Below, one piece after another: positions 2,399 to 52,892 of a stretch of DNA of 64,000 bases. Location of the stretch: positions 8,307-72,306 of the forward strand of contig PLNR01000009.1 in assembly GCA_003141835.1 (NCBI GenBank). The letters are read 5' to 3'. A model generated the notes under the pieces. That model did not search any database. It was given only the letters and a program-made list of their open reading frames with translations, and was not told where the DNA came from. The number at the start of each line of letters is the position of its first letter. Position 1 is the first letter of the stretch. The translations under genes and the position numbers were made by a program. This DNA comes from Candidatus Omnitrophota bacterium (GTDB taxonomy: Bacteria; Omnitrophota; Gorgyraeia; Pluralincolimonadales; Pluralincolimonadaceae).

Positions 2399-3103
2399 TC
2401 AAAAAGCAATAGTTTCCTGAGCCGGTACACCCGCCCCGGCCGGAAGCAAGTCGCAGACATAATAACGGTTATCCCTGAGGGTTACTTCGCCTTTTACGAA
2501 CGGTATCTTGTAACGGAACATCGGGCCCGCGTAAACGAACGAATGGAATTCACCCTTCTCGCCGCAGGGGTCGACGCCTGAAGGCAGATCTGCAAGAAAG
2601 GAATCGTCGAACTCCCTGCCTACGAATTCCTTGGCGAGCAATGTGGAATCCACGCAGGTGACGATAGCCTTAAAACCAAGGTCTATAAATCTGCGGGCTA
2701 ATTGGCTGCTATTACGCTTCCAAATGGGGTATACCCCTTTCATGCCTATGCGCGCCAGGTTATCATCCCTGTATTTTTTAACATCTTCAAGCCATATATC
2801 TCCCGCTGCGCTCAGGAGGGTGCCTTTCGCAAGATATCTCTCGAGAATCTCGCGAACCTTCGACTCGTATTCCCCGTTGGGGGCGTTTTTCGATATGAGC
2901 GCTTTTTCGAGCCTGATGCCGAGTGCCGCGGCCTGTAGCTCAAGGAGAACGGTCCTTACGCCGTGCATGCTTATCCTGTCGTAATCCTTTGTGATGGTCG
3001 TAAGCAACGCCGCAACATCATAATCGCCGGCCTGCTTCAGATCATAAAGCGCGAGCGCACTATCCTTGCCGCCGCTCCAAGAGAATATAACTTTTTCTTT
3101 CAT
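2399..3103 (-). CDS. PP-loop ATPase of the MJ0570/Dph6 (diphthine-ammonia ligase-like, COG2102) family
   Basis: N-terminal SGGKDS PP-loop (VIFSWSGGKDSALAL). The ~230 aa size and C-terminal region match the MJ0570 family. The bacterial function is unknown. Confidence 0.65.
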   Translation of the reverse strand: MKEKVIFSWSGGKDSALALYDLKQAGDYDVAALLTTITKDYDRISMHGVRTVLLELQAAALGIRLEKALISKNAPNGEYESKVREILERYLAKGTLLSAAGDIWLEDVKKYRDDNLARIGMKGVYPIWKRNSSQLARRFIDLGFKAIVTCVDSTLLAKEFVGREFDDSFLADLPSGVDPCGEKGEFHSFVYAGPMFRYKIPFVKGEVTLRDNRYYVCDLLPAGAGVPAQETIAF

Positions 3104-3906
3104 TTAACCCTTCTACTTAAGACCTCGTTCATGCTGCCGCTGCGGTAACCATGCAGATCTATGGTGACATATTTAAAACCCAGTTTTTGTAGGCGTTTTG
3201 CCGCGCCTGAAGCCGCTCCGCCCTTGAAGAATTTCCTGATCTCGCGCCGGGCTACTTCTATCCTCGCGATATCGCCGTGGCAACGGACCCGCACCTGGCT
3301 GAAACCGTATTTATCCCGCAGGACATCTTCCGCTTTTCCTATCATCCCCAATTTCCGCCTGGTTATAGTATCATGATAAGGTATGCGCGATGCCAGGCAG
3401 GCGTAAGAAGGCTTATTCCATGTCGGCAATCCCAGCCTCCTCGATAACTTGCGTATTTTATCCTTTGTCAGGCGCGCCTCTTTTAACGGGCTGGCTACGC
3501 CGCCCTCTTTCGCGGCGCGGCTGCCCGGCCGGAAATCTTTCCTGTCGTCATAATTTGAGGCGTCGGCAATATACTTGTAGCCCTCACGCCGCGCTATCTC
3601 CCTTATCCGGCCGAATAGCTCTTTTTTGCAATAGTAGCATCTCTGCGGGGGGTTCTTCCTGAACCTGGGATCGTTGAACTCGCCGGTCCTTATCACCATC
3701 TGCCTGACGCCTATTTTTTTCGCGAGCCTCCTGGAATCCTTAAGCTCCGAAGACGGGTAGGTCTCCGACGCAGCGGTGACTGCCAGAACGTTGCCGCTGC
3801 CGAGCGCCTCTTTCGCGGCTTTAAGCAGGAACGTCGAATCCACACCGCCGGAGAAAGCGATCACCACCTTGCCCATCTTCTTTAAAATCTTCTTTAATCT
3901 ATCCAT
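3100..3906 (-). CDS. PP-loop ATP-utilizing enzyme of the TIGR00268/LarE family (ATP-dependent sulfur-transferase-like)
   Basis: SGGVDS PP-loop. Family motifs [34 protein letters not shown] and [14 protein letters not shown] are present. Confidence 0.7.
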
Positions 3907-4952
3907 CCGCCGCCCAATATCTTCTCGCCTTCATAAAATACGAACGCCTGGCCCGGGGTTATTGCGTACTGCGGCTCATCGAATAAAGCTTTCACCTTAT
4001 TCCCGGATACAGGCATAACCTCGCAGCCTGCTTTCGGATGGTTATACCTTATCTTCACCTCAGCGCGGATGGCAGAATCCAGCCCTCGGACAGCCATCCA
4101 CGATACGCCGCTCGCCGTCAATTCCCTGCCCTTCGCCTCAGCGGCATCGCCTAACACGATCTCGTTCTTTTCAGCGTCTATCTTCACGACATAGACCGGC
4201 TTGCCTGCCGCGATTCCCAGGCCCTCCCTCTGCCCTACGGTGTAGAACGCTATGCCTTTATGCTCTCCCAAAACCTTGCCTTCTGTATCTGTTATCCTGC
4301 CCGGCCTCGCCGCTTTTATCCTGTCCTTTATAAAATCGCGATAGTCACCTTTTATCACAAAACAGATATCCTGGCTCTCGGGTTTATCATGGATTTTGAG
4401 GCCGTTTGACCTGGCTATCTCCCTGACCTCCTTCTTTGATAAACCGCCAAGCGGGAAGAGCGTATGCTCAAGCTGTTCCTGGGTTAGGTCGAAGAGGAAA
4501 TACGACTGGTCCTTCGTCTTATCAGCGGCCTCGCTCACGAAATACCTGCCGCCGCTTCCGAGCCTGGCGTAATGGCCGGTCGCGACATAGTCCGCGCCGA
4601 GGACCTTCGCCCTCTCCAGTACCTTGCCGAATTTCATTCTGCTGTTGCAGACGACGCAGGGATTAGGCGTCCGCCCCTTTCCATACTCGGAGCAGAAATA
4701 TTTGATGACGGAATCGTTGAATTCCTTCTCGAGGTTCATGACGTAATGCGGAATATCGAGCCGCGAGGCGACCTTCCTCGCGTCCTCTATCGCATCGAGG
4801 GAACAGCAGCTCTTCTCGCCGTGCTTTCCGCAGAGGTCCTTCGACCAGAGCTGCATAGTGATCCCGATGACCTCGTATCCCTCTTCTTTCAATAAAAAAG
4901 CGGCGACGGATGAATCTACGCCGCCGCTCATAGCGACAACGGCTTTCTTCAC
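3894..4952 (-). CDS. mnmA: tRNA-specific 2-thiouridylase MnmA
   Basis: [12 protein letters not shown]-loop, catalytic cysteines ([12 protein letters not shown], ...DICF) and ~350 aa length typical of MnmA. Confidence 0.9.
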
Positions 4953-6025
4953 TTATTTTTCCGTTCCTTCTTATACATTGCCAGCAATATCACCGCCAGG
5001 ACCACCGCCGCGGCGCCGATGCCTGCCGGGTTGAGTTTACGCGACTTCGCCCGGAGCGTGAATTCCTTAAGGATAAAATCATCGTTCTTGAATTCCCATT
5101 TCGCGGAATTCGAAACTATCTTCCCTGCTTCTGCCTCGAAGACTCGTCCCGGCATGACGACCGACACATCGAACGAATAGCCCATAAACACCGGCAAGCC
5201 GTATACGCCGAAAGCGTCATCGTAATTGGCGCCGTTCATCGCGGTGCTGTAATCCGAAAGCTGTTTGTCGATGCTCGCGTGCACCGCCATAAGTTTCTCC
5301 CAAACGGCTTCCTTGCCGGCCGCTTTATCCGCGGATATTATGTAGTCGGCGAATATCGCGGAGAATTCCTCGGCGGAGCATTTCTTCTCGAACCCTTCCA
5401 TCTTCGCCTTGAATTGCGTATTCTTCTCATTGAACGCCTGCCGGCCGGCCCTGGTCAACTCGGCCGCTATATAGTCGAAATACGGGCGATATACGGCCTC
5501 CAGCAGCTCCCTGGCTTTCTCCTTTTTTACCGCCTTCGGAAAAGCCCGCGCCACTTCGGTGGAAGCCGTATCCATGGCGTGCCCGTACCAGCTATCGCAT
5601 AATTTCTTGATCCTCCCGCTGTCGGTGCAGTCCTTATACGTCTCCTCGTATTCGTAAGTCGTAAATAATATGCCCTTGTTGATCTTGAGGGAGAATTTGT
5701 TGGACGAGACATCGCCGGGTTTCGTCCCTGACCTAAAATAGTCAGGGACCAGTTTATTCAGGTCGGTAAATACCTGCTTCGCCTCGTAAATATGTTGGGG
5801 AGGGGAATCCTTTACGTACTGGTTAAGCCTCCACTCGCCGCCCGGAGGCAGGACGTAATTCTTAAGGACTTCCTCTTTCTCAGTCGCGCCGTCGGCGGTG
5901 TAGGTAGTAATGCGGAAACCTGAGCCGTCGTCGTTTATCTTAGTCGTCGCAGCCATATTTATGAAACAACCGCTGGCTGAAAGGACGACAAACGGCAAGA
6001 ACGCTAAGAAGAGAAACTTCTTCAC
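4949..6025 (-). CDS. Hypothetical lipoprotein with an additional C-terminal TM anchor
   Basis: Signal peptide [20 protein letters not shown] with a lipobox-like SASGC, and a C-terminal hydrophobic helix [18 protein letters not shown] followed by KKERKNK. No recognizable catalytic motif. Confidence 0.5.
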
Positions 6026-6028
6026 TTG

Positions 6029-7423
6029 TTATCCTTTAAGATACCTGTCTATTGCCGCGGCGGCTTTTTTGCCCGCGCCCATAGCCGCGATGACCGTGCC
6101 CTCGCCGGTCGTTATATCCCCGCCGGCGAATATGCCCTTGATCGAGGTCATACAGTTCTCATCTATCTTAAGCTCGCCGGACCTTTCGTCGACCGCGAGC
6201 TCTTTTGTCGTATGCGCTATCAACGGGTTCGGCCCCTGGCCGACCGCAATAATGACCGTGTCTACCGGCATCTCGTATTCTGAGCCCTTGATCGGGACCG
6301 GACGCCTTCTGCCGCTCGCGTCCGGTTCACCGAGCTCCATCTTCAGGCAGGTCATGCTCTTTACTTCGCCTTTTTCATTTCCCTCTATTTTGATAGGGGC
6401 GGTCAGGAACCTGAATTCTATCCTTTCTTCTTTTGCGTGCTCGAGTTCTGCGCGCCTCGCCGGGGCCTCGGCCTCACTCCTCCTGTAGATGATCATCGCG
6501 TCCTTGGCGCCAAGGCGTTTGGCCACGCGCACGCAGTCCATGGCTGTGTTACCAGCGCCGACTACAGCGACGCGGCCGCCGATCTTTACCGGAGTTTTAT
6601 ACTTCGGGAACTCGTACGCGTGCATCAGGTTGACGCGCGTCAGGAACTCGTTCGCGGAATAGACGCCGTTCAAGTTCTCTCCCGGGATGCCCAGGAAATA
6701 CGGCAGCCCTGCGCCTGTCCCGAGGAATATCGCTTTGTATCCGTCCTTGAAAAGGTCGGCTATCGAGAATGTCCGCCCTATAAGGATATTATATTTTATG
6801 TCGACGCCGAGAGACCTGATATATTCCGTCTCGCGGTCGAGTATGACCTTGGGCAGCCTGAACTCCGGTATGCCGTACCTTAAAACGCCGCCGCTGGAGC
6901 TCAACGACTCGAAGAGCGTGACCTTGTAGCCGTACCTGGCAAGGTCTGCCGCCGCTGTCAGGCCGGCCGGACCCGCGCCGACCACCGCGACTTTAATATC
7001 TTTCGTTTCTTTCGCGGCAGGCACTTCCTTAAGTCCGGGATAGGCGGCTTCCCAGTCTGCAACGAACCTCTCGAGCGCGCCGACCGCTACCGGCTGTCCT
7101 TTAGCCGCCAGTGCGCAAAGCGATTCGCACTGAGTCTCTTGCGGGCATACGCGGCCGCAGATGGCGGGAAGGTTATTCTTCTCTTTTATCTTTTGTATGG
7201 CGCCTTTATAGTCTTTCTTGGCGACGAGTTTTATGAATTCGGGTATGTCTATCTCGACCGGGCATCCGTTGCAGCAGGGCTTCTTCTTGCACGCTATGCA
7301 GCGCTGCGCCTCGAGCACCGCCTGCTCTTCGGTGAAACCCAATGATACTTCCTTGAAATCCTTGTTCCTCTCGTCCGGATTGCGTGCCGGTATCTCTTGC
7401 CTGGGTGTCTTATTGGTAGCCAT
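6029..7423 (-). CDS. nfnB: NADPH-dependent oxidoreductase large subunit, GltD family (NfnB / SudA-like)
   Basis: N-terminal Cys cluster (CIACKKKPCCNGCP...CGRVCPQETQCESLC) and two Rossmann GxGxxG motifs (VAVVGAGPAGL, VAVVGAGNTAMD), as in glutamate synthase beta / NfnB. Confidence 0.7.
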   Translation of the reverse strand: MATNKTPRQEIPARNPDERNKDFKEVSLGFTEEQAVLEAQRCIACKKKPCCNGCPVEIDIPEFIKLVAKKDYKGAIQKIKEKNNLPAICGRVCPQETQCESLCALAAKGQPVAVGALERFVADWEAAYPGLKEVPAAKETKDIKVAVVGAGPAGLTAAADLARYGYKVTLFESLSSSGGVLRYGIPEFRLPKVILDRETEYIRSLGVDIKYNILIGRTFSIADLFKDGYKAIFLGTGAGLPYFLGIPGENLNGVYSANEFLTRVNLMHAYEFPKYKTPVKIGGRVAVVGAGNTAMDCVRVAKRLGAKDAMIIYRRSEAEAPARRAELEHAKEERIEFRFLTAPIKIEGNEKGEVKSMTCLKMELGEPDASGRRRPVPIKGSEYEMPVDTVIIAVGQGPNPLIAHTTKELAVDERSGELKIDENCMTSIKGIFAGGDITTGEGTVIAAMGAGKKAAAAIDRYLKG

Positions 7424-8232
7424 TATACCTCGAGTGCTCTCCTTTCTTCGTCCAAGAACCTCTTGTTCCTCGCCATGAGTTCGTCAAAATCCACTTTATA
7501 TCCGTCAAATTCCGGGCCGTCGACGCACGAGAACTTCGTCTTGCCCTCTATAGTGCAGCGGCAGCTCCCGCACATCCCTGTCGCGTCCAAAAGTATCGCG
7601 TTCAAACTCACTATCGCGGGGATATTATGCGGCTTCGCCGTCATTGTGACCGCTTTCATCATCGGTATCGGGCCGCAGCAGATGACGCGGTCGACCTTCT
7701 GTTCCGAGATGACCTTTTTAAGGGCGTCGGTCACGAAACCCTTGATGCCGTAACTGCCGTCGTCCGTGGTAATGAGCACCTCGTCAGCGATTGGCTTGAA
7801 TTCATCCTCGAGTATTATAAGGCTCTTGTTGCGGGCGCCGATTATGGTGATAACCTTATTGCCTTTTTCTTTCAGGGCCTTTGCCGCGGTATATAATTCA
7901 GCAGCGCCGACGCCTCCGCCGATTATCACGACCGTGCCGAATTTCTCTATCTCGGTAGGGTTGCCCAGCGGCCCCAGTATATCCCTTATCTGGTCCCCCG
8001 CCTTTAACGCGCAGAGGTCTTTCGTCGACCTGCCGAGCTGCTGTATGATGAGCGTCACGGTCCCGCGCGCCTTGTCAGCGTCGCATATCGTAAGCGGTAT
8101 CCTCTCGGCGAACTCATCGAGCCGAACGACGACGAACTGCCCGGGCTTCGACTCGCGCACGACCATCGGCGCCTCGACCTTCATTAAAGTTATCGTATCT
8201 GCCAGCTGCTTCTTCTCTACTATCTTGTGCAT
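7423..8232 (-). CDS. nfnA: Ferredoxin-NADP+ reductase-like small subunit (NfnA / SudB-like; FAD + [2Fe-2S])
   Basis: ~270 aa FNR-fold protein with C-terminal cysteines (GMCGSCRCTIEGKTKFSCVDGPEF). Paired and translationally coupled with the GltD-like subunit, the canonical NfnAB/SudAB arrangement. Confidence 0.65.
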   Translation of the reverse strand: MHKIVEKKQLADTITLMKVEAPMVVRESKPGQFVVVRLDEFAERIPLTICDADKARGTVTLIIQQLGRSTKDLCALKAGDQIRDILGPLGNPTEIEKFGTVVIIGGGVGAAELYTAAKALKEKGNKVITIIGARNKSLIILEDEFKPIADEVLITTDDGSYGIKGFVTDALKKVISEQKVDRVICCGPIPMMKAVTMTAKPHNIPAIVSLNAILLDATGMCGSCRCTIEGKTKFSCVDGPEFDGYKVDFDELMARNKRFLDEERRALEV

Positions 8233-9089
8233 GCTCTCCTCTTTGTTTTTATCTTTTTAAGCTCCGATCCGTTCATCGTAAAGCTGTGCTCTTCAGTGGG
8301 AAACTTACCGCTTTCTACCTCATCTTTATATCTCTTGAACGCATTCAGAAGCAACGGCCAAAGATCGGCGTATTTCTTCACGAACTTCGGCGTGAAGCGG
8401 TCGAATAATCCTATCATGTCGTTAGTGACGAGCGCCTGGCCGTCGCAATACGAGCCGGCGCCTATGCCTATCGTGGGTACCTGCAATTTTTCCGTTATCA
8501 ATTTCGCGAGTTTATCCGGGACGCACTCGAGGAGCACCGCGAAGCATCCGGCTTTCTCCAGTGCAAGCGCGGAATCGAGCAGCTTCTGCGCGCTCGCGGC
8601 ATCCTTGCCCTGGACTTTGAACCCGCCGAGCTGGGTCGCGGTCTGCGGCGTAAGGCCTATGTGCCCCAGGACCGGGATCCCTGCTTTGACCAATGCTTTT
8701 ACGACGCTGACCATCTCGGTGCCGCCCTCGATCTTTACGGCGCCGCAGCCGCCTTCCTTTATGAACCTGCCGGCGTTCCTTATGGTCTCTTTTTCGCCTA
8801 TGTTATATGTCATAAAAGGCATATCGCCTATTATAAGCCCGTACCTGACGCCGCGTTTTACGGCTTTGGCGTGGTGGACCATCTCGTCCATAGTTATGGG
8901 GACGGTCGATTCATAGCCCAGGACCGTCATCGCCAGCGAATCGCCTATAAGTATAATGTCCACGCCCGCCTCGTCGATCAACCGGCCCGAGGGATAATCA
9001 TAGGCGGTAAGGAGCGTTATCTTCCTGCCTTCCTTTTTCTTCTTCTGGATATCCGGTATAGTCAACTTCTTCCGCTCCATCGCCGTCAC
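8220..9089 (-). CDS. panB: 3-methyl-2-oxobutanoate hydroxymethyltransferase PanB
   Basis: LLTAYDYPSGRLIDEAGVDIILIGDSLAMTVLGYESTVPITMDEM... is a strong PanB signature. Confidence 0.85.
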   Translation of the reverse strand: MTAMERKKLTIPDIQKKKKEGRKITLLTAYDYPSGRLIDEAGVDIILIGDSLAMTVLGYESTVPITMDEMVHHAKAVKRGVRYGLIIGDMPFMTYNIGEKETIRNAGRFIKEGGCGAVKIEGGTEMVSVVKALVKAGIPVLGHIGLTPQTATQLGGFKVQGKDAASAQKLLDSALALEKAGCFAVLLECVPDKLAKLITEKLQVPTIGIGAGSYCDGQALVTNDMIGLFDRFTPKFVKKYADLWPLLLNAFKRYKDEVESGKFPTEEHSFTMNGSELKKIKTKRRACTR

Positions 9090-11503
9090 CTTCTTTCTTT
9101 CATGAGCGATTTTACGATATTGACCGCTTCTATTGCGTCGCGCGCGTAGGCTGAGGCGCCTATCTCCTTGGCGAACGCCTCGGTCACTACTGCGCCGCCG
9201 ACTATCGTCTTGAAATTATAACCCTTCTTCTTCAATTCCTTAATGACGCGCTCCATCTGGATCATCGTCGTAGTCATCAGCGCGCTCAAACCGATTATGT
9301 CGGCCTTGTTCTTCACCGCTTCTTTTATTATCGTATCCGCAGGCACGCCGCGGCCGAGGTCAAGTATCTTATATCCGTGGTTTTCCAGGACCGATATGAC
9401 GATATTCTTGCCGATATCGTGTATATCGCCCTCGACCGTCGCGATGACGATCGTCCCTTTATCCTCTTCCTCCCCGGGTTTTATCTCTTTCTTCAGCCGC
9501 CCGAACGCGCGCTGGACCGCTTCCGCGGATAATATAACCTGCGGGAGGAAATATTCCCTTTTGCCGAATTTTTCGCCGACTATCTCGAGCGAGGGGATAA
9601 GTATCTTGCTGTTTATCTCGAGCGGGGCGATGCCCTGTAAAAGAGCCTCTTCGATATATGAAACGATGTTTTCCTTGTCGCCGTAAAGGACCGCCTCTTT
9701 GAGCCGTGTCTTCACATCCTTATGCTCGCCCGGCTTTACTTCCAGTTTTTTCCTCGAGGCCTCCTGGACAGGGTTGAGCGCGGTTTTAAGGAATTTATTT
9801 ATCTCGGCATCCGTCGTCACGCGCTTCTTCTTTTGTTTCGCGACCCAGAACATGTTATCGTCGCTCGGGTTTATTATGGCTAGGTCGAGGCCGAACGCGA
9901 GCGCCAGCGAAAAGAAGTCCGCGTTTATCTTCCTCCTGTTCGGGAGGCCGAACGATACATTGCTCACGCCTAATGAAGACGAATATCCTTTTTTCTTTAA
10001 TTCCTTGATCGCTTTGAGCGTCTCTTTCGTCTGCTCAGGCTCCGCCGATATGGCAAGGGTAAGAGGGTCTACGATTATATCTTCTTTTTGTATGCCGAGA
10101 GCGGCCGCCTTGCTGATTACATAGTCCGCGATCTTTACGCGCGCCTTTGCATCTTTCGGGATGCCGCATTTGTCGAGGGCAAGGACGAGTATCGCCGCGC
10201 CGTATTTCTTCGCGAGAGGCAGGATCGAATCGATCTTATCCTTCTCGCCGTTCACGGAATTTATAAGGGGCTTTCCGGCAACCTCCTTCAACGCTTCCTC
10301 GATAGCCGCGGTATTGGCGCTGTCTATGGATATGGGAGCTTCGCTTACCGCCTGGACCGCCTCGATTGCCGCGGCGATCGTCTCCTGCTCGCGCGTCCCC
10401 GGCACGCCTACATTGACGTCCAGGATATCCGCGCCTTTCTTCGTCTCCTCTATCGCCTCGCGCCTTATTATTACGGTCTTGCCGCTCTTAATCTCATCCT
10501 GGAGCTCTTTCTTACCGGTCGGGTTGATCCGCTCGCCTATTATCAGCGGCCGGGTCATCGAGTTAAGCTCAACGACCTTTGTCCTCGACGATAACCTGAA
10601 GGCAGGGAGATACTTCCTCTTTGCCGGCCTTTTATTCCTTAATATCTTTTTCAGCGCATTTATATGCTCCGGCGTCGTCCCGCAGCAGCCGCCGATAAGG
10701 TTTACCCCGAGACCGGCGAATTCCACCGCGTACTTCGCGAATGATTTCGGGCTCTCAGGAAAAAAAGTCTTACCGCCGCGCAGCTCGGGAAGCCCGGCGT
10801 TTGGCAGGCACGATATATATTTATCCGTATATGGCGAGATCTCTTTAATGACTTTTACGAGTTCTTTCGGCCCGGTAGAGCAGTTCGTCCCGATGATATC
10901 GGAGCCGAGGCTGTTGAACAGCACGGCAAAAGCCGAAGGCGACGTACCGTAAGTGCTCCGCTCCCCGCCCTCGAATGTCATCTGGGCCTGGACCGGGATT
11001 TTTCTGTCGACATGCCGGGCAGCGACAAACGCCGCTTTCAATTCCTTTATGTCTGCAAATGTCTCCAGTAGTATGATGTCGCATCCGCCTTCTTTAAGTT
11101 TCCTTATCTGGTCCTCGAATATCTTGACCGCTTCATCGAAAGTGAGGTCGCCCAACGGTGTTATCTGCCTGTCGAGAGGCCCTACCGAACCCGCGACATA
11201 CGCCTTACCGGCGGCCGCCGACCTCGCGATGCGCGCCGCCTCGTAATTTATCCTGTCAGCTTCTTTCTCAAGCCCGTACGCGGCTAGCTTTAACCTGCTG
11301 CCGCCGAATGAATTAGTTTCGATTATATCCGCGCCGGCTTTTATGTAATCGAGATGTACGGCCTTCAGGATATCGGGCCTCGAGAGGTTCAATTCCTCGG
11401 GGCAGGCTCCCGCCTTCAGCGCCCCGGTCTCCTGTAAGACCGTTCCGAGCGCGCCGTCGTATATCAATATCTCATTTTTTAAGCGGGCTAATATTTTTTT
11501 CAT
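9086..11503 (-). CDS. metH: Cobalamin-dependent methionine synthase MetH core: Hcy S-methyltransferase, pterin-binding and B12-binding domains, no reactivation domain
   Basis: N-terminal Hcy-binding barrel (ILIYDGALGT..., GGCCGTTPEHI), central pterin-binding region, C-terminal B12 module with ...TVEGDIHDIGKNIV (DxHxxG) and ...SALMTTT.... At 805 aa it lacks the AdoMet-binding domain. Confidence 0.85.
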   Translation of the reverse strand: MKKILARLKNEILIYDGALGTVLQETGALKAGACPEELNLSRPDILKAVHLDYIKAGADIIETNSFGGSRLKLAAYGLEKEADRINYEAARIARSAAAGKAYVAGSVGPLDRQITPLGDLTFDEAVKIFEDQIRKLKEGGCDIILLETFADIKELKAAFVAARHVDRKIPVQAQMTFEGGERSTYGTSPSAFAVLFNSLGSDIIGTNCSTGPKELVKVIKEISPYTDKYISCLPNAGLPELRGGKTFFPESPKSFAKYAVEFAGLGVNLIGGCCGTTPEHINALKKILRNKRPAKRKYLPAFRLSSRTKVVELNSMTRPLIIGERINPTGKKELQDEIKSGKTVIIRREAIEETKKGADILDVNVGVPGTREQETIAAAIEAVQAVSEAPISIDSANTAAIEEALKEVAGKPLINSVNGEKDKIDSILPLAKKYGAAILVLALDKCGIPKDAKARVKIADYVISKAAALGIQKEDIIVDPLTLAISAEPEQTKETLKAIKELKKKGYSSSLGVSNVSFGLPNRRKINADFFSLALAFGLDLAIINPSDDNMFWVAKQKKKRVTTDAEINKFLKTALNPVQEASRKKLEVKPGEHKDVKTRLKEAVLYGDKENIVSYIEEALLQGIAPLEINSKILIPSLEIVGEKFGKREYFLPQVILSAEAVQRAFGRLKKEIKPGEEEDKGTIVIATVEGDIHDIGKNIVISVLENHGYKILDLGRGVPADTIIKEAVKNKADIIGLSALMTTTMIQMERVIKELKKKGYNFKTIVGGAVVTEAFAKEIGASAYARDAIEAVNIVKSLMKERR

Positions 11504-12092
11504 AGACCTTTCTTATGGGCCTTTGGCCTTTCTTTACGAGGCCGATGCATGCCGTGACCGATTTCTCCGGGAGCATGATATAGCTTTTTGTCGCCTTTAC
11601 GCCTATCTTGCCTGACTTCAGAATTTTCAGGACCTTTACCTGGTCGAATATCGTCCAGTCACCGTATCCCGGGCTGAACCGCGCCGTTGCCGCGTAGCCG
11701 TCGGCCTTTGCTTTCGTCTTTATCACGCCATCTATGTAATCTGCCAGCGCCTCGACCGCTTCCGAACCTGCCGCGTCGAGCACTGTCGCGCGTGCTACTT
11801 CACCTTTAGTAACGTATTTATTAACCATATCCACAAAGTCGCTTCCGATCGTGCACACAAATAGCGCGGCCCTGCCCGCCCCTTTTAGGCGCTTTGCCAA
11901 GGCGCTGCTCTTTATGGTAAGGTTCACTGAAGCGAACCTTACCACTTCGCGGCTCACCGCGACATCAAATATCCCGTAGGCGGCCTTCGGCCCTATGAGC
12001 GAATGGCCCTCTTCGATCACGCCGGATATGAAATCGAGTATCTTCTTGTCTGCCTTTGTCTTGTATTTTGCGAATTTGAGGCGAGATAGCAC
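11472..12092 (-). CDS. Stand-alone methionine synthase reactivation (AdoMet-binding activation) domain protein
   Basis: ~200 aa protein matching the MetH C-terminal activation-domain fold (...RFSPGYGDWTIFDQ...). Immediately upstream of, and overlapping, the truncated metH. Confidence 0.65.
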   Translation of the reverse strand: MLSRLKFAKYKTKADKKILDFISGVIEEGHSLIGPKAAYGIFDVAVSREVVRFASVNLTIKSSALAKRLKGAGRAALFVCTIGSDFVDMVNKYVTKGEVARATVLDAAGSEAVEALADYIDGVIKTKAKADGYAATARFSPGYGDWTIFDQVKVLKILKSGKIGVKATKSYIMLPEKSVTACIGLVKKGQRPIRKVYEKNISPLKK

Positions 12093-12146
12093 GAGGTCCG
12101 TCGGTATCTTTATAGGGACGTTCTTAAGAAAGACGATTTTAGTCTC

Positions 12147-13013
12147 CTAGAGGCCGGCTTTGTCCAGGATCTGCGGAACAAGCTTGTTCCAGCCCAATGA
12201 CATTATATGGACGCCCTGCGCCAGGCCCTTCAACTCTTTTATGGTGCGCGCCGCGATCTCAACGGCCTTCTGCTGTTTGTCAGGCGCGGCTTCGACTTCC
12301 TTTATCAGGTCATCCGGTATGAATATGCCGGCCACGTTCTTGTTCATGAACCTGGCCATGTCCGGGGATTTGATAAGTATGATCCCTGCGATGATGCAGG
12401 TATTATGATGTTTGACCTGGCCGATGAATTTCGAGAACGCCTTGACGTCATATACGCCCTGCGTCTGGAAGAATTCGGCGCCGGCCTTTATCTTCTTCTC
12501 GAATTTAATAAGTTCCGGTTCGATCGGGTCCGCGCCCGGGTTCACGACCGCGCCGATGCAGAATTTAGGTGCGCCTTTAAGTTCTTTCCCTGCGAGGTCC
12601 TTACCGCTCTCGAGCTTTTTTAAGGTCTCGATCAATTGTACCGAGTCGAGGTCGAATACGGGTTTCGCTTCCGGATGGTCGCCGCGCGACGGATGGTCGC
12701 CGGTCAGTACCAGGATATTCTCTATCCCGAGCACGGCCGCGGACAACGCGTCAGACTGCAGCGCTATCCTGTTCCTGTCGCGGCAGGTCAGCTGGTATAT
12801 CGGCTCGATGCCCTCTTGTTTAAGAAGGCGGCTTACGGCAAGCGAACCAAGCCTCATAACGGCGCTCTGGGAGTCGGTCACGTTCATTGCGTCGACCCTG
12901 CCTTTGAGGAGCCGCGCCTCGTCAAGGTTCGCCTTGACGTCGATACCCTTAGGCGGGCCTATTTCGGCCGTGACTATGAATTTTTTATTATTTATCTTTT
13001 CTTTTAAAGTCAT
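12147..13013 (-). CDS. metF: Methylenetetrahydrofolate reductase MetF (acetogen-type)
   Basis: MTHFR TIM-barrel motifs (FIVTAEIGPPKG, NILVLTGDHP). 288 aa and paired with a metV gene. Confidence 0.8.
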   Translation of the reverse strand: MTLKEKINNKKFIVTAEIGPPKGIDVKANLDEARLLKGRVDAMNVTDSQSAVMRLGSLAVSRLLKQEGIEPIYQLTCRDRNRIALQSDALSAAVLGIENILVLTGDHPSRGDHPEAKPVFDLDSVQLIETLKKLESGKDLAGKELKGAPKFCIGAVVNPGADPIEPELIKFEKKIKAGAEFFQTQGVYDVKAFSKFIGQVKHHNTCIIAGIILIKSPDMARFMNKNVAGIFIPDDLIKEVEAAPDKQQKAVEIAARTIKELKGLAQGVHIMSLGWNKLVPQILDKAGL

Positions 13014-13676
13014 CTATATCCTTTTCTTCGCCGCGTCCACCACGACCTTGCGCGGTTTTATCGATTTAGAGTGGTCCTTCGGGGGATGGACCTTTTTCAT
13101 CTTATCCAGTTCCCCGAGGTCCTTGAGGCGATTATATATCAACAGCCAGCCGCAGTCAATATCAGGGCTGACTTCGCATTTGCCGTCCTTGACGCCGCCG
13201 CACGGCCCGTTCTGCAGCCCCTTGGGGCAGAACGTATTGGGACAGTAACCGCCGGTCATGAATAACGTGCAGTCGCCGCAGAGTGAACACGCTTCGGCAA
13301 AATGTCCGGCCCTCTCTGCCTCGCCCAAGAAGAGCGTGTCGGTCGCCGGGATCACCTTTTTGCCGGTCCCGTGGAATATCGTAAAACAGCCGTCGCCGCA
13401 GCTCATAGAAAGTATCACGTCGGCCTTATCGAGCACAGCTATATTGTCGCGCGCGCGTTTCTTTACCTCGAGCAGGTGGCACGGCGGATCCCAGATCTCT
13501 GTGGCCACGATATTCTTGCCGTGTCCCTTGAGGAGCTCCTCCATCTTCTTTACTTCATCCTCGCCGCCTGTCTTGCAGACGGTCGCGCACTGGGCGCAGC
13601 CGGCTATGAAGACGTTCTTGACGCCCTCCAGGTATTTAAGTATCTCGTCTATGGGTTTTTGTTTTGTGATTATCAT
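13014..13676 (-). CDS. metV: MetV, the Cys-rich MTHFR C-terminal-domain-like subunit of MetVF
   Basis: Cys-rich ~220 aa protein (GCAQCATVC..., CGDGC, CSLCGDCTLFMTGGYCP..FCPKGLQNGPCGG). Immediately upstream of metF, as in acetogen metV-metF loci. Confidence 0.7.
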   Translation of the reverse strand: MIITKQKPIDEILKYLEGVKNVFIAGCAQCATVCKTGGEDEVKKMEELLKGHGKNIVATEIWDPPCHLLEVKKRARDNIAVLDKADVILSMSCGDGCFTIFHGTGKKVIPATDTLFLGEAERAGHFAEACSLCGDCTLFMTGGYCPNTFCPKGLQNGPCGGVKDGKCEVSPDIDCGWLLIYNRLKDLGELDKMKKVHPPKDHSKSIKPRKVVVDAAKKRI

Positions 13677-14488
13677 CTTTTCACCTGCTCCTTAAAGAGC
13701 GCGATGCAATTGCACATCGACATTATCACGGTAAGCGGCCCGACGCCTCCGGGTACCGGGGTTATGAAGCCCGCGCGCTTCTTCGCCGCCTCGAATTCCA
13801 CGTCGCCTACTATCCTGTCGCCCACCTTGCTTATGCCAACATCGACCACGATAGCGCCTTTCTTTATCCAGGCGCCTTTTATCAGGCCCGGCTTCCCGAC
13901 CGCGACGACCAGTATTTCGGCCCGCGCTATATGGTCTTTTAGATTTCCGCGGGTGGCCGTGCCGATGTGGCATACGGTCACAGTCGCCAGCTTATCCAGC
14001 AAAGACATCGCTATCGGCTTGCCTACCAGCTCGCCATGCCCCACAACAACCGCTTCCCTGCCGAATAGGCTTATCCCAGTCGACCTTATTATCTCCATGA
14101 CCGCCGACGCCGTCGGGTTGACCCTCTCGACGTTCTTGGACGGATCTATGTAAAATATCGTCTGCTTAAGGTTTATCGTCTTCGGCAGAGGCAGGCCGAG
14201 CATTATAGCTGTTGTCTTTTTATCCCCGTTCAGTTTCTTTATCGCGCGGATAAGCTCGTCCTGCGAGACCGAAGAGCTTAAACCTACCTTCCTGTACTTT
14301 ATGCCGAGTTCCTTTGCCAGTTTCTCCTGCGAATTTATATAGATAGTCGCGGGTTTCTGCACTCCCACCTGAATGACCGAGAGCATGGGCGTCCTGCCGT
14401 ATCTTTTCTTTATGGCGGCCACCTCGCGCTTCAATTGCGCTTTCAATTTGGAAGCAAGAACCTTGCCGTTCAGGACTTTAGCCGTCAT
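13673..14488 (-). CDS. folD: Bifunctional methylene-THF dehydrogenase / methenyl-THF cyclohydrolase FolD
   Basis: FolD signatures (KVLNGK..., VVVGHGELVGKP, PVPGGVGPLT). Start moved to MTAKVLNGK. Confidence 0.85.
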   Translation of the reverse strand: MTAKVLNGKVLASKLKAQLKREVAAIKKRYGRTPMLSVIQVGVQKPATIYINSQEKLAKELGIKYRKVGLSSSVSQDELIRAIKKLNGDKKTTAIMLGLPLPKTINLKQTIFYIDPSKNVERVNPTASAVMEIIRSTGISLFGREAVVVGHGELVGKPIAMSLLDKLATVTVCHIGTATRGNLKDHIARAEILVVAVGKPGLIKGAWIKKGAIVVDVGISKVGDRIVGDVEFEAAKKRAGFITPVPGGVGPLTVIMSMCNCIALFKEQVKR

Positions 14489-14973
14489 CTGACGACCCAC
14501 CTCTTCTTTTTCTGTTTTACCAGTTTCCCTGCCGCTTTGACCGACGCCCGCAGGAATAATTCCGCGGCCGCCATATCTCCCTTGAGGTTCTTATTACCTA
14601 TCTTTTTGAGCCTCATGCATATCCTCACGCCTCTCTCTGAAAGCGCCGATATCTCTTGCGCGCAATCCGAGGCCTTTTTCATGGAGATATTGCTTCTTGT
14701 CCTTGCGTATTCATTATATGTCTTTGCGTCTTTTTCAATATACGCGCTTAATTTATCCCTGACCGCGCCGGCATTTTTCGAAATGGCCTTGGCTTCGTTA
14801 TCGTATCTTTTATATTTCTTTTTCCCGATCGTAAAATTCGCGACTTTTACGATCAGGGCAGCACCGAGTGCGCCGACCAAAGCTGCTGCCGCGCCTCCGC
14901 CCGGCGAGGGCTTCCTCTCTCCCAGCTCTTTTACAAAAAGATCGATCCTGTTCTTCGCGCATATTTTAATCAT
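14485..14973 (-). CDS. fchA: Methenyl-THF cyclohydrolase FchA (formiminotransferase-cyclodeaminase family)
   Basis: ~160 aa helical protein with PSPGGGAAAALVGALGAAL, typical of the FTCD_C/FchA family. Lies between fhs and folD. Confidence 0.7.
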   Translation of the reverse strand: MIKICAKNRIDLFVKELGERKPSPGGGAAAALVGALGAALIVKVANFTIGKKKYKRYDNEAKAISKNAGAVRDKLSAYIEKDAKTYNEYARTRSNISMKKASDCAQEISALSERGVRICMRLKKIGNKNLKGDMAAAELFLRASVKAAGKLVKQKKKRWVVR

Positions 14974-16652
14974 CAGAATAACCCCGTTATATTGCCATCG
15001 TTATCGACATCCACGCGCTCGGCGAGAGGGACCTTCGGCATCCCCGGCATCAGGTTCATCTCGCCGGTCAAGGCGACCAGGAAGCCCGCGCCTGCAGAGA
15101 CCTTCACCTCTTTTACCTTGAGGCGCCATCCGGTCGGGGCGCCTTTCACCTTCGGGTCGTCTGTGAATGACAGGTGCGTCCTCGCCATATTCACCGGAAG
15201 CTCATCGTAATTATTTTCCGTAAGGAAATTTATATCGTCCTCGGACGTCCCGACATATACCACGCCCTCGGCTCCGTATACCTCGGTGGCGATCTTCTCT
15301 ATCTTCTCCTTTATCGAAAGGCTCGGGTCATAAAGCGGCTTGAATTTCGAGGGATGCTCCTGCATCGTCGCGATGACCGCCTGCGCGAGCTTCTCGCCGC
15401 CCTCCCCGCCCTTGGCGACCACTTCGGCGATCTCGGCCAGGACGCCTTTGCTCCTGCAAAATTCCTTTATCCTGTTCAACTCGTTATCCGTATCCTTAGG
15501 GAACCTGTTTATCGCCACGACCAGCCATATCCCGAACTTCTTTACGTTCTCAATGTGCCGTTCGAGGTTCGGCAGGCCCTTATTGAGCGCTTCCAGGTCT
15601 TCCTTCTCCAGGTCGATTTCAGCCATGCCGCCGTGCGCTTTTAACGCGCGGGCGCTCGCGACCACTACTGCGCAGTCGGGCCTGAATTTCCCCTGCCGCG
15701 TCACGACATCGCAGAATTTCTCGAAACCCAGGTCGGTCCCGAAGCCTGTCTCGACTACCGCATAATCGGCAAGTTTGAGCGCCATCTGCGTAGCGAGGAT
15801 GCTGTTCGTCCCGTGCGCGATATTCCCGAACGGCCCCATGTGCACGAATGCCGGCTGGCCCTCGAGCGTCTGAACCATATTGGGCTTTACCGCTTCCTTT
15901 AAGATGGCGGCCATCGCGCCGACGATTTTCAACTCGGACGCGGTGACGGGCCTGCCCTTATTCGTGAAACCGATTATTATCTTTCCGAGCCTCTCCTTCA
16001 GGTCTTTGTATCCGGTGGTAAGCGCCAGGCACGCCATTATCTCCGAAGCGGCCGTGATATCGAAACCTTCGCGGCGCTTTACCGCGCCCTCGGTTATCCC
16101 GACCTGCACCTCGCGCAAACTCCTGTCGCAAAGGTCTATCGTCCTGCGCCAGATCACCCTTTTCGGGTCGAGTTTTAACTCGTTGCCCTTTGCCAGGTGG
16201 TTATCTATTATGGCAGCCAAAAGATTGTGCGCTGCAGTGACCGCGTGTATGTCTCCCGTGAAATGGAGATTGATATCCTCCATCGGCAGGACTTGCGCGT
16301 ATCCCCCGCCGCATCCGCCGCCCTTAAGCCCTAATGCCGGGCCCAGCGACGGTTCGCGAAGGCATAAAATGACGCGTTTCTTCAGCCGGCCAAGCGCCTG
16401 GGTCAGGCCTATCGAGATACAGGTCTTGCCTTCTCCGTGCTTAGTCGGGGTCATGGCCGTGACAAGGATAAGTTTACCGTCAGGGCGCTGCTTCAGCCTC
16501 TGGAGGACGACGAGCGTGATCTTAGCCTTAAAATTACCGTAAAGCTCAAGCTCGTCGGCGTTCAAGCCGGCTTTTGTCGCAACCCCAACGATCTGCTTGG
16601 GATGCGTGAGTTTCGCGATCTCTGATGTGGAATGCGGTTTTTTAGCGAACAT
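14973..16652 (-). CDS. fhs: Formate--tetrahydrofolate ligase
   Basis: 559 aa with hallmark FTHFS motifs (PTKHGEGKTC, GGGYAQVLPMEDINLHFTGD, FGNIAHGTNS). Confidence 0.9.
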   Translation of the reverse strand: MFAKKPHSTSEIAKLTHPKQIVGVATKAGLNADELELYGNFKAKITLVVLQRLKQRPDGKLILVTAMTPTKHGEGKTCISIGLTQALGRLKKRVILCLREPSLGPALGLKGGGCGGGYAQVLPMEDINLHFTGDIHAVTAAHNLLAAIIDNHLAKGNELKLDPKRVIWRRTIDLCDRSLREVQVGITEGAVKRREGFDITAASEIMACLALTTGYKDLKERLGKIIIGFTNKGRPVTASELKIVGAMAAILKEAVKPNMVQTLEGQPAFVHMGPFGNIAHGTNSILATQMALKLADYAVVETGFGTDLGFEKFCDVVTRQGKFRPDCAVVVASARALKAHGGMAEIDLEKEDLEALNKGLPNLERHIENVKKFGIWLVVAINRFPKDTDNELNRIKEFCRSKGVLAEIAEVVAKGGEGGEKLAQAVIATMQEHPSKFKPLYDPSLSIKEKIEKIATEVYGAEGVVYVGTSEDDINFLTENNYDELPVNMARTHLSFTDDPKVKGAPTGWRLKVKEVKVSAGAGFLVALTGEMNLMPGMPKVPLAERVDVDNDGNITGLF

Positions 16653-16663
16653 AGTGAATCTTT

Positions 16664-16692
16664 ATTATAGGAAAATAAACGACTTGCGTCAA
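16664..16692 (-). promoter_or_regulatory. Near-consensus sigma70-type promoter for the fhs operon
   Basis: Read on the minus strand: TTGACG (16692-16687), 17-nt spacer, TATAAT (16669-16664). Only 11 nt separate the -10 from the fhs ATG (16652) and there is no SD, so the transcript may be leaderless or near-leaderless. Confidence 0.5.
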
Positions 16693-24240: not shown

Positions 24241-24261
24241 AGTTGCCTTCTTTCCTATAAA

Positions 24262-49729: not shown

Positions 49730-49734
49730 TTATA

Positions 49735-51161: not shown

Positions 51162-51164
51162 CTT

Positions 51165-52811: not shown

Positions 52812-52823
52812 ATAGTTATGTAT

Positions 52824-52852: not shown

Positions 52853-52892
52853 TTATTTCTTTTCAAAAAGCAAAAAAATACGAATCCGCTGT

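What the first reader, a model, noticed from the sequence alone, without database searches (positions are those of the whole stretch)
6029..16692. One-carbon supercluster: Wood-Ljungdahl-type methyl branch (fhs-fchA-folD-metV-metF) ending in split MetH and PanB, co-operonic with NfnAB-like oxidoreductase
Seen in sequence: ten co-directional, tightly packed genes behind a consensus TTGACG-N17-TATAAT promoter. Established knowledge: fhs-fchA-folD-metV-metF is the acetogen methyl-branch arrangement, and MetVF-type MTHFRs lack their own NAD(P)H module and borrow electron-input partners (Hdr/Mvh-like or RnfC-like). Here there is no acsE/CFeSP/CODH. The methyl group is instead routed to methionine (metH + separate reactivation domain) and methylene-THF to pantoate (panB), with nfnA-nfnB immediately downstream. 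Inference: NfnAB (NADPH/ferredoxin) may be the redox partner of MetVF in this organism, an undescribed pairing. The locus is an anabolic formate-to-methyl module rather than an acetogenic one.
Basis: partly seen in the sequence, partly recalled or inferred. Interest (0 to 1): 0.6.

Follow-up and report, generated by a model that had tools for sequence, protein, structure and literature searches.

The report
Biosynthetic one-carbon operon beside NfnAB
An uncultured Omnitrophota bacterium packs the genes that turn formate into folate-bound one-carbon units, methionine and pantoate into one string next to an ordinary NfnAB transhydrogenase; comparison with relatives gives no support for NfnAB being a dedicated partner of the MetVF reductase.

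Summary
The gene content is real: fhs, fchA, folD, metV, metF, a TM0269-like MetH reactivation protein, core metH, panB, nfnA and nfnB lie on the minus strand behind a promoter-like element. That element is conserved in 8 of 8 related loci. Co-directionality means little here. Every gene identified in the 64-kb window is on that strand, and the tightly coupled string runs four genes further (a lipoprotein, mnmA, larE-like, dph6-like).

The organism is a Candidatus Omnitrophota MAG. One Omnitrophota clade keeps this order, usually as panB-panE-nfnA-nfnB, so nfnAB sits next to the ketopantoate reductase gene and 4-5 kb from metVF.

The two pairs separate. One clade member has metVF but no nfnAB at this locus. 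Another has nfnAB but metVF collapsed to a 172-aa remnant. An Omnitrophota genome outside the clade carries nfnAB beside V-ATPase genes. Only 1 of 80 MetV-centred loci has nfnA+nfnB, and only 1 of 80 NfnB-centred loci has metVF; both belong to this clade.

NfnA and NfnB align end to end with the crystallised stand-alone enzymes. An nfn-folD/fch neighbourhood is already described in Moorella and read as NADPH supply.

Verdict: an ordinary anabolic C1/methionine/pantoate operon with a two-subunit MetVF and a free-standing Nfn. The proposed MetVF-NfnAB pairing is not supported. Whether the genome holds CODH/ACS elsewhere could not be tested.

The parts
16664..16692 (-). Sigma-70-type promoter, TTGACG-N17-TATAAT. 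The -10 hexamer ends 11 nt before the fhs ATG and there is no SD, so the mRNA is probably leaderless or near-leaderless.
   Evidence: Conserved as TTGACG/TTGCAA-N17-CCTATAAT at a fixed distance from the ATG in 8/8 clade loci, while the flanking intergenic sequence is not alignable. No SD upstream of fhs, unlike most internal genes.
14973..16652 (-). fhs, formate-tetrahydrofolate ligase (559 aa)
   Evidence: PF01268 E 9.8e-240; NF010030 789 bits, above the cut-off of 652.
14485..14973 (-). fchA-like methenyl-THF cyclohydrolase, short form (162 aa)
   Evidence: PF04961 E 6.4e-31. The NCBIfam FchA equivalog matches only positions 4-97 of 207 and falls below its cut-off. The length is 158-172 aa throughout the clade.
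13673..14488 (-). folD homologue, atypical (271 aa). It has Q in place of the YxxxK lysine and a 17-residue deletion across the HPxNxGxL...PCTP loop. It is probably a monofunctional methylene-THF dehydrogenase; its cofactor is unknown.
   Evidence: PF00763 + PF02882. All FolD equivalog models score below their cut-offs. Alignments.
13014..13676 (-). metV, Fe-S/Zn subunit of MetVF-type MTHFR (220 aa)
   Evidence: PF12225 E 1.2e-34. The NGPCGG motif and 13 invariant Cys are conserved across 19 homologues.
12147..13013 (-). metF, flavin subunit of MetVF-type MTHFR (288 aa)
   Evidence: PF02219 E 2e-42. Only distant matches to NAD(P)H-type MetF structures, E 3e-9. It starts immediately after the metV stop.
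11472..12092 (-). Stand-alone MetH reactivation protein, TM0269-like (206 aa)
   Evidence: E 1.8e-12 to PDB 1J6R, T. maritima. Weak PF02965 hit, E 6e-5, below the cut-off.
9086..11503 (-). metH core, cobalamin-dependent methionine synthase without the AdoMet/reactivation domain (805 aa)
   Evidence: PF02574, PF00809, PF02607 and PF02310. TIGR02082 aligns over positions 2-861 of 1182.
8220..9080 (-). panB, ketopantoate hydroxymethyltransferase (286 aa)
   Evidence: PF02548 E 1.9e-116; TIGR00222 345 bits, above the cut-off of 207.
7423..8232 (-). nfnA (NfnS), FAD/NAD(H) and [2Fe-2S] subunit (269 aa)
   Evidence: E 9e-95 to 5JCA_S and 3.5e-84 to 4YLF_A, aligned end to end. The D-x-TGMCGxCR...C cluster motif is present.
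6029..7423 (-). nfnB (NfnL), FAD/NADP(H) and 2x[4Fe-4S] subunit (464 aa)
   Evidence: E 1e-163 to 4YLF_B and 1e-146 to 5JCA_L, aligned end to end. The motifs RCx2Cx4Cx3CPV and GRVCPQExQCx3C, as defined in PMC6405883, are present.
2399..6025 (-). Rest of the same tightly coupled string: a 358-aa lipoprotein-like ORF with no family hit, mnmA, a larE-like PP-loop ATPase and a dph6-like ATP pyrophosphatase. None is related to C1 metabolism.
   Evidence: Junctions are -4, -13 and -4 nt. The same order is kept in clade loci.

Best explanation
This is a biosynthetic folate one-carbon operon of an Omnitrophota bacterium, set inside a long one-strand array of housekeeping genes.

Proposed pathway:
1. 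Formate is activated by Fhs.
2. FchA performs the cyclohydrolase step.
3. An atypical FolD, probably dehydrogenase-only, reduces methenyl-THF to methylene-THF.
4. Methylene-THF is either used by PanB for pantoate/CoA or reduced to methyl-THF by a two-subunit (type II / 2S) MetVF. By analogy with purified enzymes of that type, MetVF takes electrons from reduced ferredoxin, not from NAD(P)H.
5. Methyl-THF is used by a split MetH (core enzyme plus a TM0269-like reactivation protein) to make methionine.

NfnAB is a free-standing NADH-dependent ferredoxin:NADP+ oxidoreductase. It was inserted after panE in the ancestor of one clade. It connects the ferredoxin/NADH pools to NADPH. Its placement most plausibly reflects co-expression with NADPH-consuming biosynthetic reductases: PanE directly beside it in most relatives, and possibly FolD. 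It does not reflect a physical complex with MetVF.

Shown here: gene identities, order, conservation, the conserved promoter, and the dissociation of nfnAB from metVF. Inferred: direction of flux, the ferredoxin donor for MetVF, the NADPH-supply role of Nfn, and transcription as one unit.
For: - Gene identities.
- Clade synteny fhs-fchA-folD-metVF-RD-metH-panB-(panE)-nfnAB-lipoprotein-mnmA. PanE identified by TIGR00745, 287 bits.
- metVF with panB(-panE) but without nfnAB in more distant Omnitrophota, Planctomycetia and Nitrospirota.
- Housekeeping context (rpsP-trmD-rplS-rnhB ... rlmN upstream; tilS-ftsH-folP-pdxJ-acpS downstream).
- No hdrABC/mvhD, rnfC2 or nuoEFG genes beside metVF, which is the 2S/type II arrangement. 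Type II enzymes use reduced ferredoxin and not NAD(P)H (PMC8760232, PMC8515935).
- Nfn is known to supply NADPH for methylene-THF dehydrogenase, and in M. thermoacetica it lies upstream of folD/fch (PMC6405883, PMC8760232). L098 also has folD directly after nfnB.
- FolD lacks the YxxxK lysine, which fits the need for a separate FchA (the role of that lysine is from my own knowledge of human and E. coli FolD).
- Omnitrophota with a formate-fed methyl branch and no formate dehydrogenase are already described (PMC10066038).
Against: - Transcription as one unit is inferred only from gene packing, one conserved promoter and the lack of convincing terminators.
- The FolD here has neither of the usual NADP 2'-phosphate ligands: GHG where human has GRS, and CHI where E. 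coli has HR and human has HS. FolD may therefore not use NADPH.
- This window and L089 have lost panE from the locus, which weakens the argument that an NADPH consumer sits next door for this particular genome.
- The electron donor of MetVF has not been assayed in any Omnitrophota.
- A CODH/ACS cluster elsewhere in the genome would add a catabolic role.
Confidence: 0.62

Rival explanations
1. The cluster is the methyl branch of a complete, energy-conserving Wood-Ljungdahl pathway. acsABCDE/cooS lie elsewhere in the genome, and methionine and pantoate synthesis are side uses.
For: - fhs-fchA-folD-metV-metF is the acetogen gene order, with a separate FchA and a MetVF-type reductase.
- Many Omnitrophota families encode partial or complete WLP, some fed by formate because they lack FDH (PMC10066038).
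- Only about 72 kb of a 443-kb contig could be inspected.
Against: - No acs/cooS/CFeSP gene was found in the window, in the 7.6 kb read beyond it, or within +/-10 kb in any clade locus.
- metH, its reactivation protein, panB and panE are embedded in the operon throughout the clade.
- The operon sits among ribosomal, tRNA-modification and cofactor genes.
- One clade assembly has metVF deleted while the rest is intact, which is hard to reconcile with a catabolic backbone.
Confidence: 0.2
2. One reading: NfnAB docks on MetVF and serves as its NAD(P)H/ferredoxin input module. That would be a new MTHFR subtype, possibly electron-bifurcating.
For: - Both pairs share one tightly packed string in at least eight clade loci (window, L002, L083/84, L087, L088, L089, L090).
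- Two-subunit MetVF has no NAD(P)H site, and its physiological donor in acetogens is debated (PMC8760232).
- Other lineages put NAD(P)H-binding modules next to metVF: RnfC2, HdrA, and NuoF::GltD-like fusions (PMC8515935).
Against: - nfnAB is separated from metVF by three or four genes and abuts panE/panB.
- L082 has metVF without nfnAB at the locus. L172 has nfnAB with metVF reduced to an in-frame 172-aa remnant.
- L171, an Omnitrophota genome outside the clade, has nfnAB beside V-ATPase genes and no metVF within 10 kb.
- 79/80 MetV loci lack nfnA+nfnB and 79/80 NfnB loci lack metVF.
- NfnA/B and MetV/F show no extra domains or extensions relative to enzymes that work alone.
[quoted passage not shown] That organism has an Nfn, but Nfn was not present in those purified-enzyme assays.
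Confidence: 0.05
3. The adjacency carries no functional meaning. nfnAB is a general redox-balancing unit that landed in a compact, one-strand housekeeping array of a streamlined genome.
For: - The same string also holds mnmA, larE-like, dph6-like and tilS genes.
- Every gene identified in the window shares one strand.
- In L171 nfnAB sits in the equivalent housekeeping array but after rny-ymdB and before V-ATPase genes.
- In 79 other loci its neighbours are unrelated to the genes of this operon.
Against: The position directly after panE is kept in at least six clade loci spanning 71-87% NfnA/B identity. An nfn-folD link recurs independently in Moorella (PMC6405883) and in L098.
Confidence: 0.13

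Closest known systems
Type II / '2S' MetVF methylenetetrahydrofolate reductase (Clostridium ljungdahlii, C. formicoaceticum, Thermoanaerobacter kivui, Eubacterium callanderi)
   Same: metV lies directly upstream of metF. MetV carries the NGPCGG motif and the Cys clusters. No rnfC2, hdrABC-mvhD or nuoEFG genes are adjacent. fhs-fchA-folD lie upstream (PMC8760232, PMC8515935).
   Different: It is found here in an Omnitrophota MAG, followed by metH/panB rather than lpdA/cooC/acs genes. The context is biosynthetic. The enzyme has not been assayed.
Moorella thermoacetica nfnAB next to fch/folD (NfnAB as NADPH supplier of the methyl branch)
   Same: Canonical two-gene nfnAB in the same neighbourhood as C1-folate genes. 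The accepted reading is NADPH provision, not complex formation (PMC6405883).
   Different: In Moorella nfn lies directly upstream of folD, and MTHFR is the separate six-subunit Hdr/Mvh type. Here nfnAB lies after panB/panE, 4-5 kb downstream of metVF, and the FolD cofactor is uncertain.
Thermotoga maritima NfnAB (4YLF) and Pyrococcus furiosus NfnI (5JCA)
   Same: End-to-end collinear alignment, E 1e-163 and 9e-95. All Fe-S ligand motifs are present.
   Different: None detected at sequence level. Activity has not been tested.
Thermotoga maritima split methionine synthase TM0268 + TM0269
   Same: The MetH core lacks the C-terminal activation domain and is paired with a separate ~200-aa reactivation protein that matches 1J6R.
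   Different: Here the reactivation gene precedes metH and overlaps it by 32 nt.
Partial Wood-Ljungdahl pathway of Omnitrophota (e.g. Velamenicoccus archaeovorus) as described by Seymour et al. 2023
   Same: An Omnitrophota methyl branch that starts from formate, with no formate dehydrogenase seen (PMC10066038).
   Different: That description includes acsBCDE. None was seen here, though the genome could not be searched.
'X-type' MTHFR gene arrangement (NuoEFG-like genes upstream of metFV in Desulfobacterales and Chloroflexi)
   Same: It shows that NfnB/GltD-like NAD(P)H modules can sit directly beside metVF. In L069 a 1038-aa NuoF::GltD-like fusion and an FdhA/NuoG-like protein precede metVF (PMC8515935).
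   Different: That module is a fusion immediately adjacent to metV. It is not a canonical NfnA+NfnB pair several genes away.

Membership tests
Wood-Ljungdahl pathway, methyl branch (acetogenic use) | fhs, fchA/folD and MTHFR genes clustered | tested here: met
Wood-Ljungdahl pathway, methyl branch (acetogenic use) | acsE, CFeSP (acsCD), ACS/CODH present with the cluster | tested here: not met
   None in the 64-kb window, in the 7.6 kb read beyond it, or within +/-10 kb in clade loci
Wood-Ljungdahl pathway, methyl branch (acetogenic use) | acs/CODH anywhere in the genome | not testable with these tools
   Only the window and +/-10 kb around window proteins are accessible.
Type II (2S) MetVF MTHFR | MetF (PF02219) plus MetV (PF12225 with NGPCGG and Fe-S cysteines), metV immediately upstream of metF | tested here: met
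Type II (2S) MetVF MTHFR | No adjacent rnfC2, hdrABC-mvhD or nuoEFG module | tested here: met
   Gene tables
Type II (2S) MetVF MTHFR | Reduced-ferredoxin-dependent, NAD(P)H-independent activity | not testable with these tools
   Biochemical property (PMC8760232, PMC8515935)
[quoted passage not shown] | Adjacent small PyrK-like and large GltD-like subunits, full-length similarity to characterised NfnAB | tested here: met
   (E 9e-95, 1e-163; aligned end to end)
[quoted passage not shown] | Cluster motifs: NfnB RCx2Cx4Cx3CPV and GRVCPQExQCx3C; NfnA D..TGMCGxCR..C | tested here: met
   Read from the alignments against the motifs given in PMC6405883
[quoted passage not shown] | Bifurcating transhydrogenase activity | not testable with these tools
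   Needs an enzyme assay
   1/80 MetV-centred and 1/80 NfnB-centred loci, both from this clade. L171, an Omnitrophota genome outside the clade, has nfnAB elsewhere.
   L082: metVF without nfnAB at the locus. L172: nfnAB with metVF deleted to a 172-aa remnant.
   No extra domain or extension in any of the four proteins. Multimer prediction and biochemistry are not available.
Split MetH (TM0268/TM0269 type) | Four-module MetH core without an activation domain, plus a separate TM0269-like protein | tested here: met
Bifunctional FolD (dehydrogenase/cyclohydrolase) | Catalytic YxxxK lysine and intact HPxNxGxL...PCTP loop | tested here: not met
   YINSQ in place of YxxxK, and a 17-residue deletion, conserved in the clade. 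All FolD equivalog models score below their cut-offs.

The most novel reading that the evidence does not exclude
In this Omnitrophota clade NfnAB is recruited, transiently or stably, as the electron-input module of a two-subunit MetVF. That would make a new NAD(P)H/ferredoxin-linked, possibly bifurcating or confurcating, methylene-THF reductase. It would also offer an answer to the open question of what reduces type II MetVF in vivo.
Probability: 0.05. Interest if true: 0.7.

Novelty: new member of a known kind. Interest (0 to 1): 0.2.

Why it matters
The comparative evidence argues against it.

What remains is a well-resolved example of how a streamlined, uncultured Omnitrophota lineage organises formate-based one-carbon anabolism. 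It combines a separate cyclohydrolase, a stripped-down FolD, a ferredoxin-type MTHFR, a split MetH and pantoate synthesis, next to the transhydrogenase that links catabolic reductants to NADPH. This is useful for metabolic reconstruction of Omnitrophota. It is not surprising to a specialist.

Tried and rejected
1. Riboswitch control. A gathering-threshold Rfam scan of the whole window found nothing, including no SAM or cobalamin riboswitch.
2. Internal promoter inside metV (TTGACT-N17-TATAAT, 13159-13131). It is not conserved in relatives and lies in the coding sequence for DIDCGWLLIYNRLK, so I treat it as chance.
3. I guessed that the MetV loci of other Omnitrophota and Planctomycetota (L048 type) were acs/CODH clusters. 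Pfam showed PheT, MgsA, NifU, 5-formyl-THF cyclo-ligase, RNase Y and YmdB instead. These are orphan MetV-like genes without metF.
4. They are ~1040-aa NuoF::GltD-like fusions next to an FdhA/NuoG-like protein. This is the 'X-type' arrangement already noted in PMC8515935, not NfnAB.
5. Walking the 443-kb contig. Only 7.6 kb beyond window position 1 could be read, and it is housekeeping. The look-up at the other end failed.
6. Using the metV allele swap (L089 is 91-95% identical to the window in every gene except MetV, at 71%) as evidence on partnership. I rejected this because MetF, the established partner, was not co-replaced either.
7. Reading FolD cofactor specificity from sequence. This was inconclusive, because both usual 2'-phosphate ligands are replaced.
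8. No solved structure matches MetV by sequence.

Full report
**Observation**

The region holds ten minus-strand genes whose identities are not in doubt:
- Fhs (PF01268, E 1e-239).
- A short FchA-like cyclohydrolase (162 aa).
- FolD.
- MetV (PF12225).
- MetF (PF02219).
- A 206-aa protein. It falls below the Pfam threshold for the MetH activation domain, but matches the stand-alone reactivation protein TM0269 of Thermotoga maritima (PDB 1J6R) at E 1.8e-12.
- An 805-aa MetH core with homocysteine-methyltransferase, pterin-binding, B12-cap and B12-binding modules.
- PanB.
- NfnA, matching the small subunit of crystallised P. furiosus NfnI (5JCA) at E 9e-95.
- NfnB, matching crystallised T. maritima NfnB (4YLF) at E 1e-163. 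Both subunits align end to end with their matches.

The Fe-S motifs that a review gives for Nfn (RCx2Cx4Cx3CPV and GRVCPQExQCx3C in the large subunit; PMC6405883) can be read in those alignments.

**Promoter**

The promoter-like TTGACG-N17-TATAAT is at 16692-16664. I aligned the fhs upstream regions of eight related loci. The -35/-10 pair and its distance to the ATG are conserved in all eight, while the rest of the spacer cannot be aligned. This is good comparative evidence for a real promoter.

The -10 hexamer ends 11 nt before the ATG and there is no Shine-Dalgarno sequence, unlike most internal genes. fhs is therefore probably read from a leaderless or near-leaderless mRNA.

**What needs correcting**

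- The tight string does not end at nfnB. A 358-aa lipoprotein-like ORF with no family hit, mnmA, a larE-like gene and a dph6-like gene follow, with junctions of +3, -4, -13 and -4 nt.
- Every ORF in the 64-kb window that I could identify as a gene is on the minus strand. The plus-strand ORFs are mostly embedded antisense in longer minus-strand ORFs.
- Upstream lie rlmN and the rpsP-trmD-rplS-rnhB block. Downstream the contig continues with tilS-ftsH-folP-pdxJ-acpS (and synteny).
- Being co-directional, or even co-operonic, is therefore weak evidence for a shared function. tRNA-modification genes qualify equally.
- No Rfam family, including the SAM and B12 riboswitches, reaches threshold.

**Organism and relatives**

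The exact sequence lies on a 443-kb metagenomic contig. The closest MetV and NfnB homologues that carry a source name are from Candidatus Omnitrophota MAGs.

I collected three sets of loci:
- 80 MetV-centred loci from species-representative genomes.
- 80 NfnB-centred loci from metagenomes.
- Thirteen gene-annotated loci of close and distant relatives, L082-L089 and L171-L173.

One Omnitrophota clade (MetV 68% identical or more, NfnB 72% or more) keeps the order fhs-fchA-folD-metV-metF-RD-metH-panB-panE-nfnA-nfnB-lipoprotein-mnmA. This holds in L002, L083/84, L087, L088 and L090. panE is confirmed by TIGR00745 at 287 bits. The window and its nearest relative L089 have lost panE. nfnAB is thus anchored next to panE/panB and sits 4-5 kb from metVF.

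More distant Omnitrophota (L085), a Planctomycetia MAG (L004) and Nitrospirota MAGs (L057, L067, L071) keep metVF with panB, and sometimes panE. They have neither nfnAB nor metH there.

**Test of the proposed MetVF-NfnAB partnership**

1. Among the 80 MetV-centred loci, only L002 (this clade) has nfnA+nfnB. Among the 80 NfnB-centred loci (830 kb of flank, 54-85% identity), only L090 (this clade) has metV/metF. One other locus (L098) has folD directly after nfnB.
2. Within the clade the pairs dissociate both ways.
   - L082 (GCA_041643015.1; MetV 87% identical to the window's) runs panB-panE-lipoprotein-mnmA with no nfnAB.
   - L172 (GCA_964625025.1) keeps fhs-fchA-folD, RD-metH, panBE and nfnAB. 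Its metVF, however, is collapsed to an in-frame 172-aa remnant that joins MetV residues 1-39 to MetF residues 154-288.
   - L172 is a single assembly, so an artefact cannot be excluded.
3. An Omnitrophota genome outside the clade (L171, GCA_043826625.1) has nfnAB in the equivalent housekeeping array, after rny-ymdB and before V-type ATPase genes, with no C1 genes nearby.
4. None of the four proteins carries an extra domain or extension that could serve as a docking module.
5. From the literature:
   - Two-subunit MetVF enzymes purified from several acetogens use reduced ferredoxin. They show no NAD(P)H-dependent activity, even with ferredoxin added (PMC8760232, PMC8515935).
   - Nfn's accepted role in the methyl branch is to provide NADPH for methylene-THF dehydrogenase.
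   - In Moorella thermoacetica nfn already lies upstream of folD/fch (PMC6405883).

**What I think is there**

This is a biosynthetic one-carbon operon:
- Formate is converted through 10-formyl-THF and methenyl-THF to methylene-THF.
- Methylene-THF branches to pantoate via PanB, and via MetVF and split MetH to methionine.

MetVF is of the 2S/type II arrangement, with no rnfC2, hdr/mvhD or nuoEFG genes beside it. By analogy it most probably draws on reduced ferredoxin.

NfnAB is a canonical, free-standing transhydrogenase that entered the array after panE in the clade ancestor. Its most plausible specific tie is co-expression with NADPH-consuming biosynthetic reductases.

I hold that last step loosely, for two reasons. 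The FolD of this clade lacks both usual NADP 2'-phosphate ligands. This particular genome has also lost the neighbouring panE.

**FolD detail**

FolD here is unusual. The YxxxK lysine is replaced by glutamine (YINSQ). From my own knowledge of the human and E. coli enzymes, that lysine is required for cyclohydrolase activity. A 17-residue stretch covering the conserved HPxNxGxL...PCTP loop is also deleted.

The deletion is conserved in all four clade sequences aligned, at 72-86% identity. The lysine replacement extends to more distant homologues that also have a separate fchA. This fits a dehydrogenase-only FolD that needs FchA.

**Limits**

- I could not search the genome for acs/CODH, formate dehydrogenase, PFL or a formate channel. 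The 'anabolic rather than acetogenic' reading rests on local context and on conservation of metH/panBE inside the operon.
- Omnitrophota with partial or complete Wood-Ljungdahl pathways, some fed by formate, are described (PMC10066038). I therefore leave about 0.2 for a catabolic role.
- No multimer structure prediction or biochemistry was possible.

**Verdict**

The anabolic routing is plausible and supported by comparative data. The novel pairing is not supported.

All components belong to known families. An nfn-C1 neighbourhood has a published precedent and explanation. I rate the locus as a new member of a known kind, with low interest (0.2). I leave 5% probability for the MetVF-NfnAB complex, which would be interesting if shown.

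Noticed in passing
window 13673-14488 (-); also L082:9189-10004, L083:9189-10004, L087:6965-7786: The clade's FolD has Q in place of the YxxxK lysine (YINSQ). It also has a conserved 17-residue deletion across the HPxNxGxL...PCTP loop, and changed residues at both usual NADP 2'-phosphate contact positions (GHG, CHI). It may be a minimal, dehydrogenase-only FolD of unknown cofactor preference.
   Followed up: partly
window 13014-13676 (-) versus L089:10001-10663: metV is a recombination mosaic. L089 is 91-95% identical in protein to the window for Fhs, FolD, MetF, MetH, PanB, NfnA and NfnB, but only 71% for MetV. Its MetV groups with the L002/L088 lineage instead (84%). Nucleotide identity drops from about 87% to about 69% over roughly 300 nt in the middle of metV (L001 10140-10439).
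   Followed up: partly
L172:3716-4234 (GCA_964625025.1): An in-frame 172-aa remnant joins MetV residues 1-39 to MetF residues 154-288, a deletion of about 1 kb. All neighbouring C1, metH, panBE and nfnAB genes are intact. This is either a recent loss of MTHFR or an assembly artefact.
   Followed up: partly
window 16821-31176 (-): A low-GC island (36-48% against ~53%) of four genes, three with surface-protein-type domains. The four are a 2304-aa PA14/beta-helix/Ig protein, a 382-aa ORF with no family hit, a 766-aa PGAP1-like hydrolase and a 1325-aa CBM protein. It is inserted between rlmN and fhs. At least the two genes nearest fhs are shared with L089. The same junction holds a 675-aa ORF in L083/L088, a RelB/YafQ toxin-antitoxin pair in L087, and nothing in L082. 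It looks like an insertion hot spot.
   Followed up: partly
window 8220-8232 junction; compare L083:15457-16419: panE (ketopantoate reductase) sits between panB and nfnA in at least seven loci of six related populations (L002, L083/84, L087, L088, L090, L172) and between panB and the lipoprotein gene in L082. It is missing from the window and from L089. The pantoate route here needs a reductase encoded elsewhere.
   Followed up: partly
L020, L025, L026, L030, L032, L048, L054, L055, L061, L068, L070, L080 (e.g. L048:9054-10780): Many Omnitrophota and Planctomycetota carry an orphan MetV-like gene (42-49% identical) with no metF hit found in the locus. In L048, the one locus checked with Pfam, it lies directly before a NifU-like gene and a 5-formyl-THF cyclo-ligase gene, in a pheT-mgsA ... 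rny-ymdB context; the others show the same gene-length pattern. A MetV-like Fe-S protein appears to work without MetF.
   Followed up: partly
L069:3726-9973; also L041, L066, L073, L079: In Dehalococcoidia and Desulfobacterota an FdhA/NuoG-like protein (890 aa) and a ~1040-aa NuoF::GltD(NfnB-like) fusion lie directly upstream of metV-metF. This matches the unstudied 'X-type' MTHFR arrangement mentioned in PMC8515935.
   Followed up: partly
window 16653-16692 (-): The fhs promoter leaves only 11 nt between the -10 hexamer and the ATG, with no SD. The arrangement is conserved in eight relatives and implies leaderless translation of the first gene of the operon.
   Followed up: partly
window 4949-6025 (-): A 358-aa protein with a lipoprotein-type signal (…LSASGC) and no Pfam or NCBIfam hit is conserved directly downstream of nfnB, or of panE in L082, in most clade loci, though it is not detected in L087. 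It diverges fast (42-71% identity).
   Followed up: no
window 46360-63860 (-): A pilus/secretion cluster of type IV pilus / type II secretion kind: two tandem secretins, a PilM-PilN fusion, a pseudopilin and a T2SS-F protein. It is interleaved with large proteins that have no family hit (869, 990, 411 and 559 aa).
   Followed up: no
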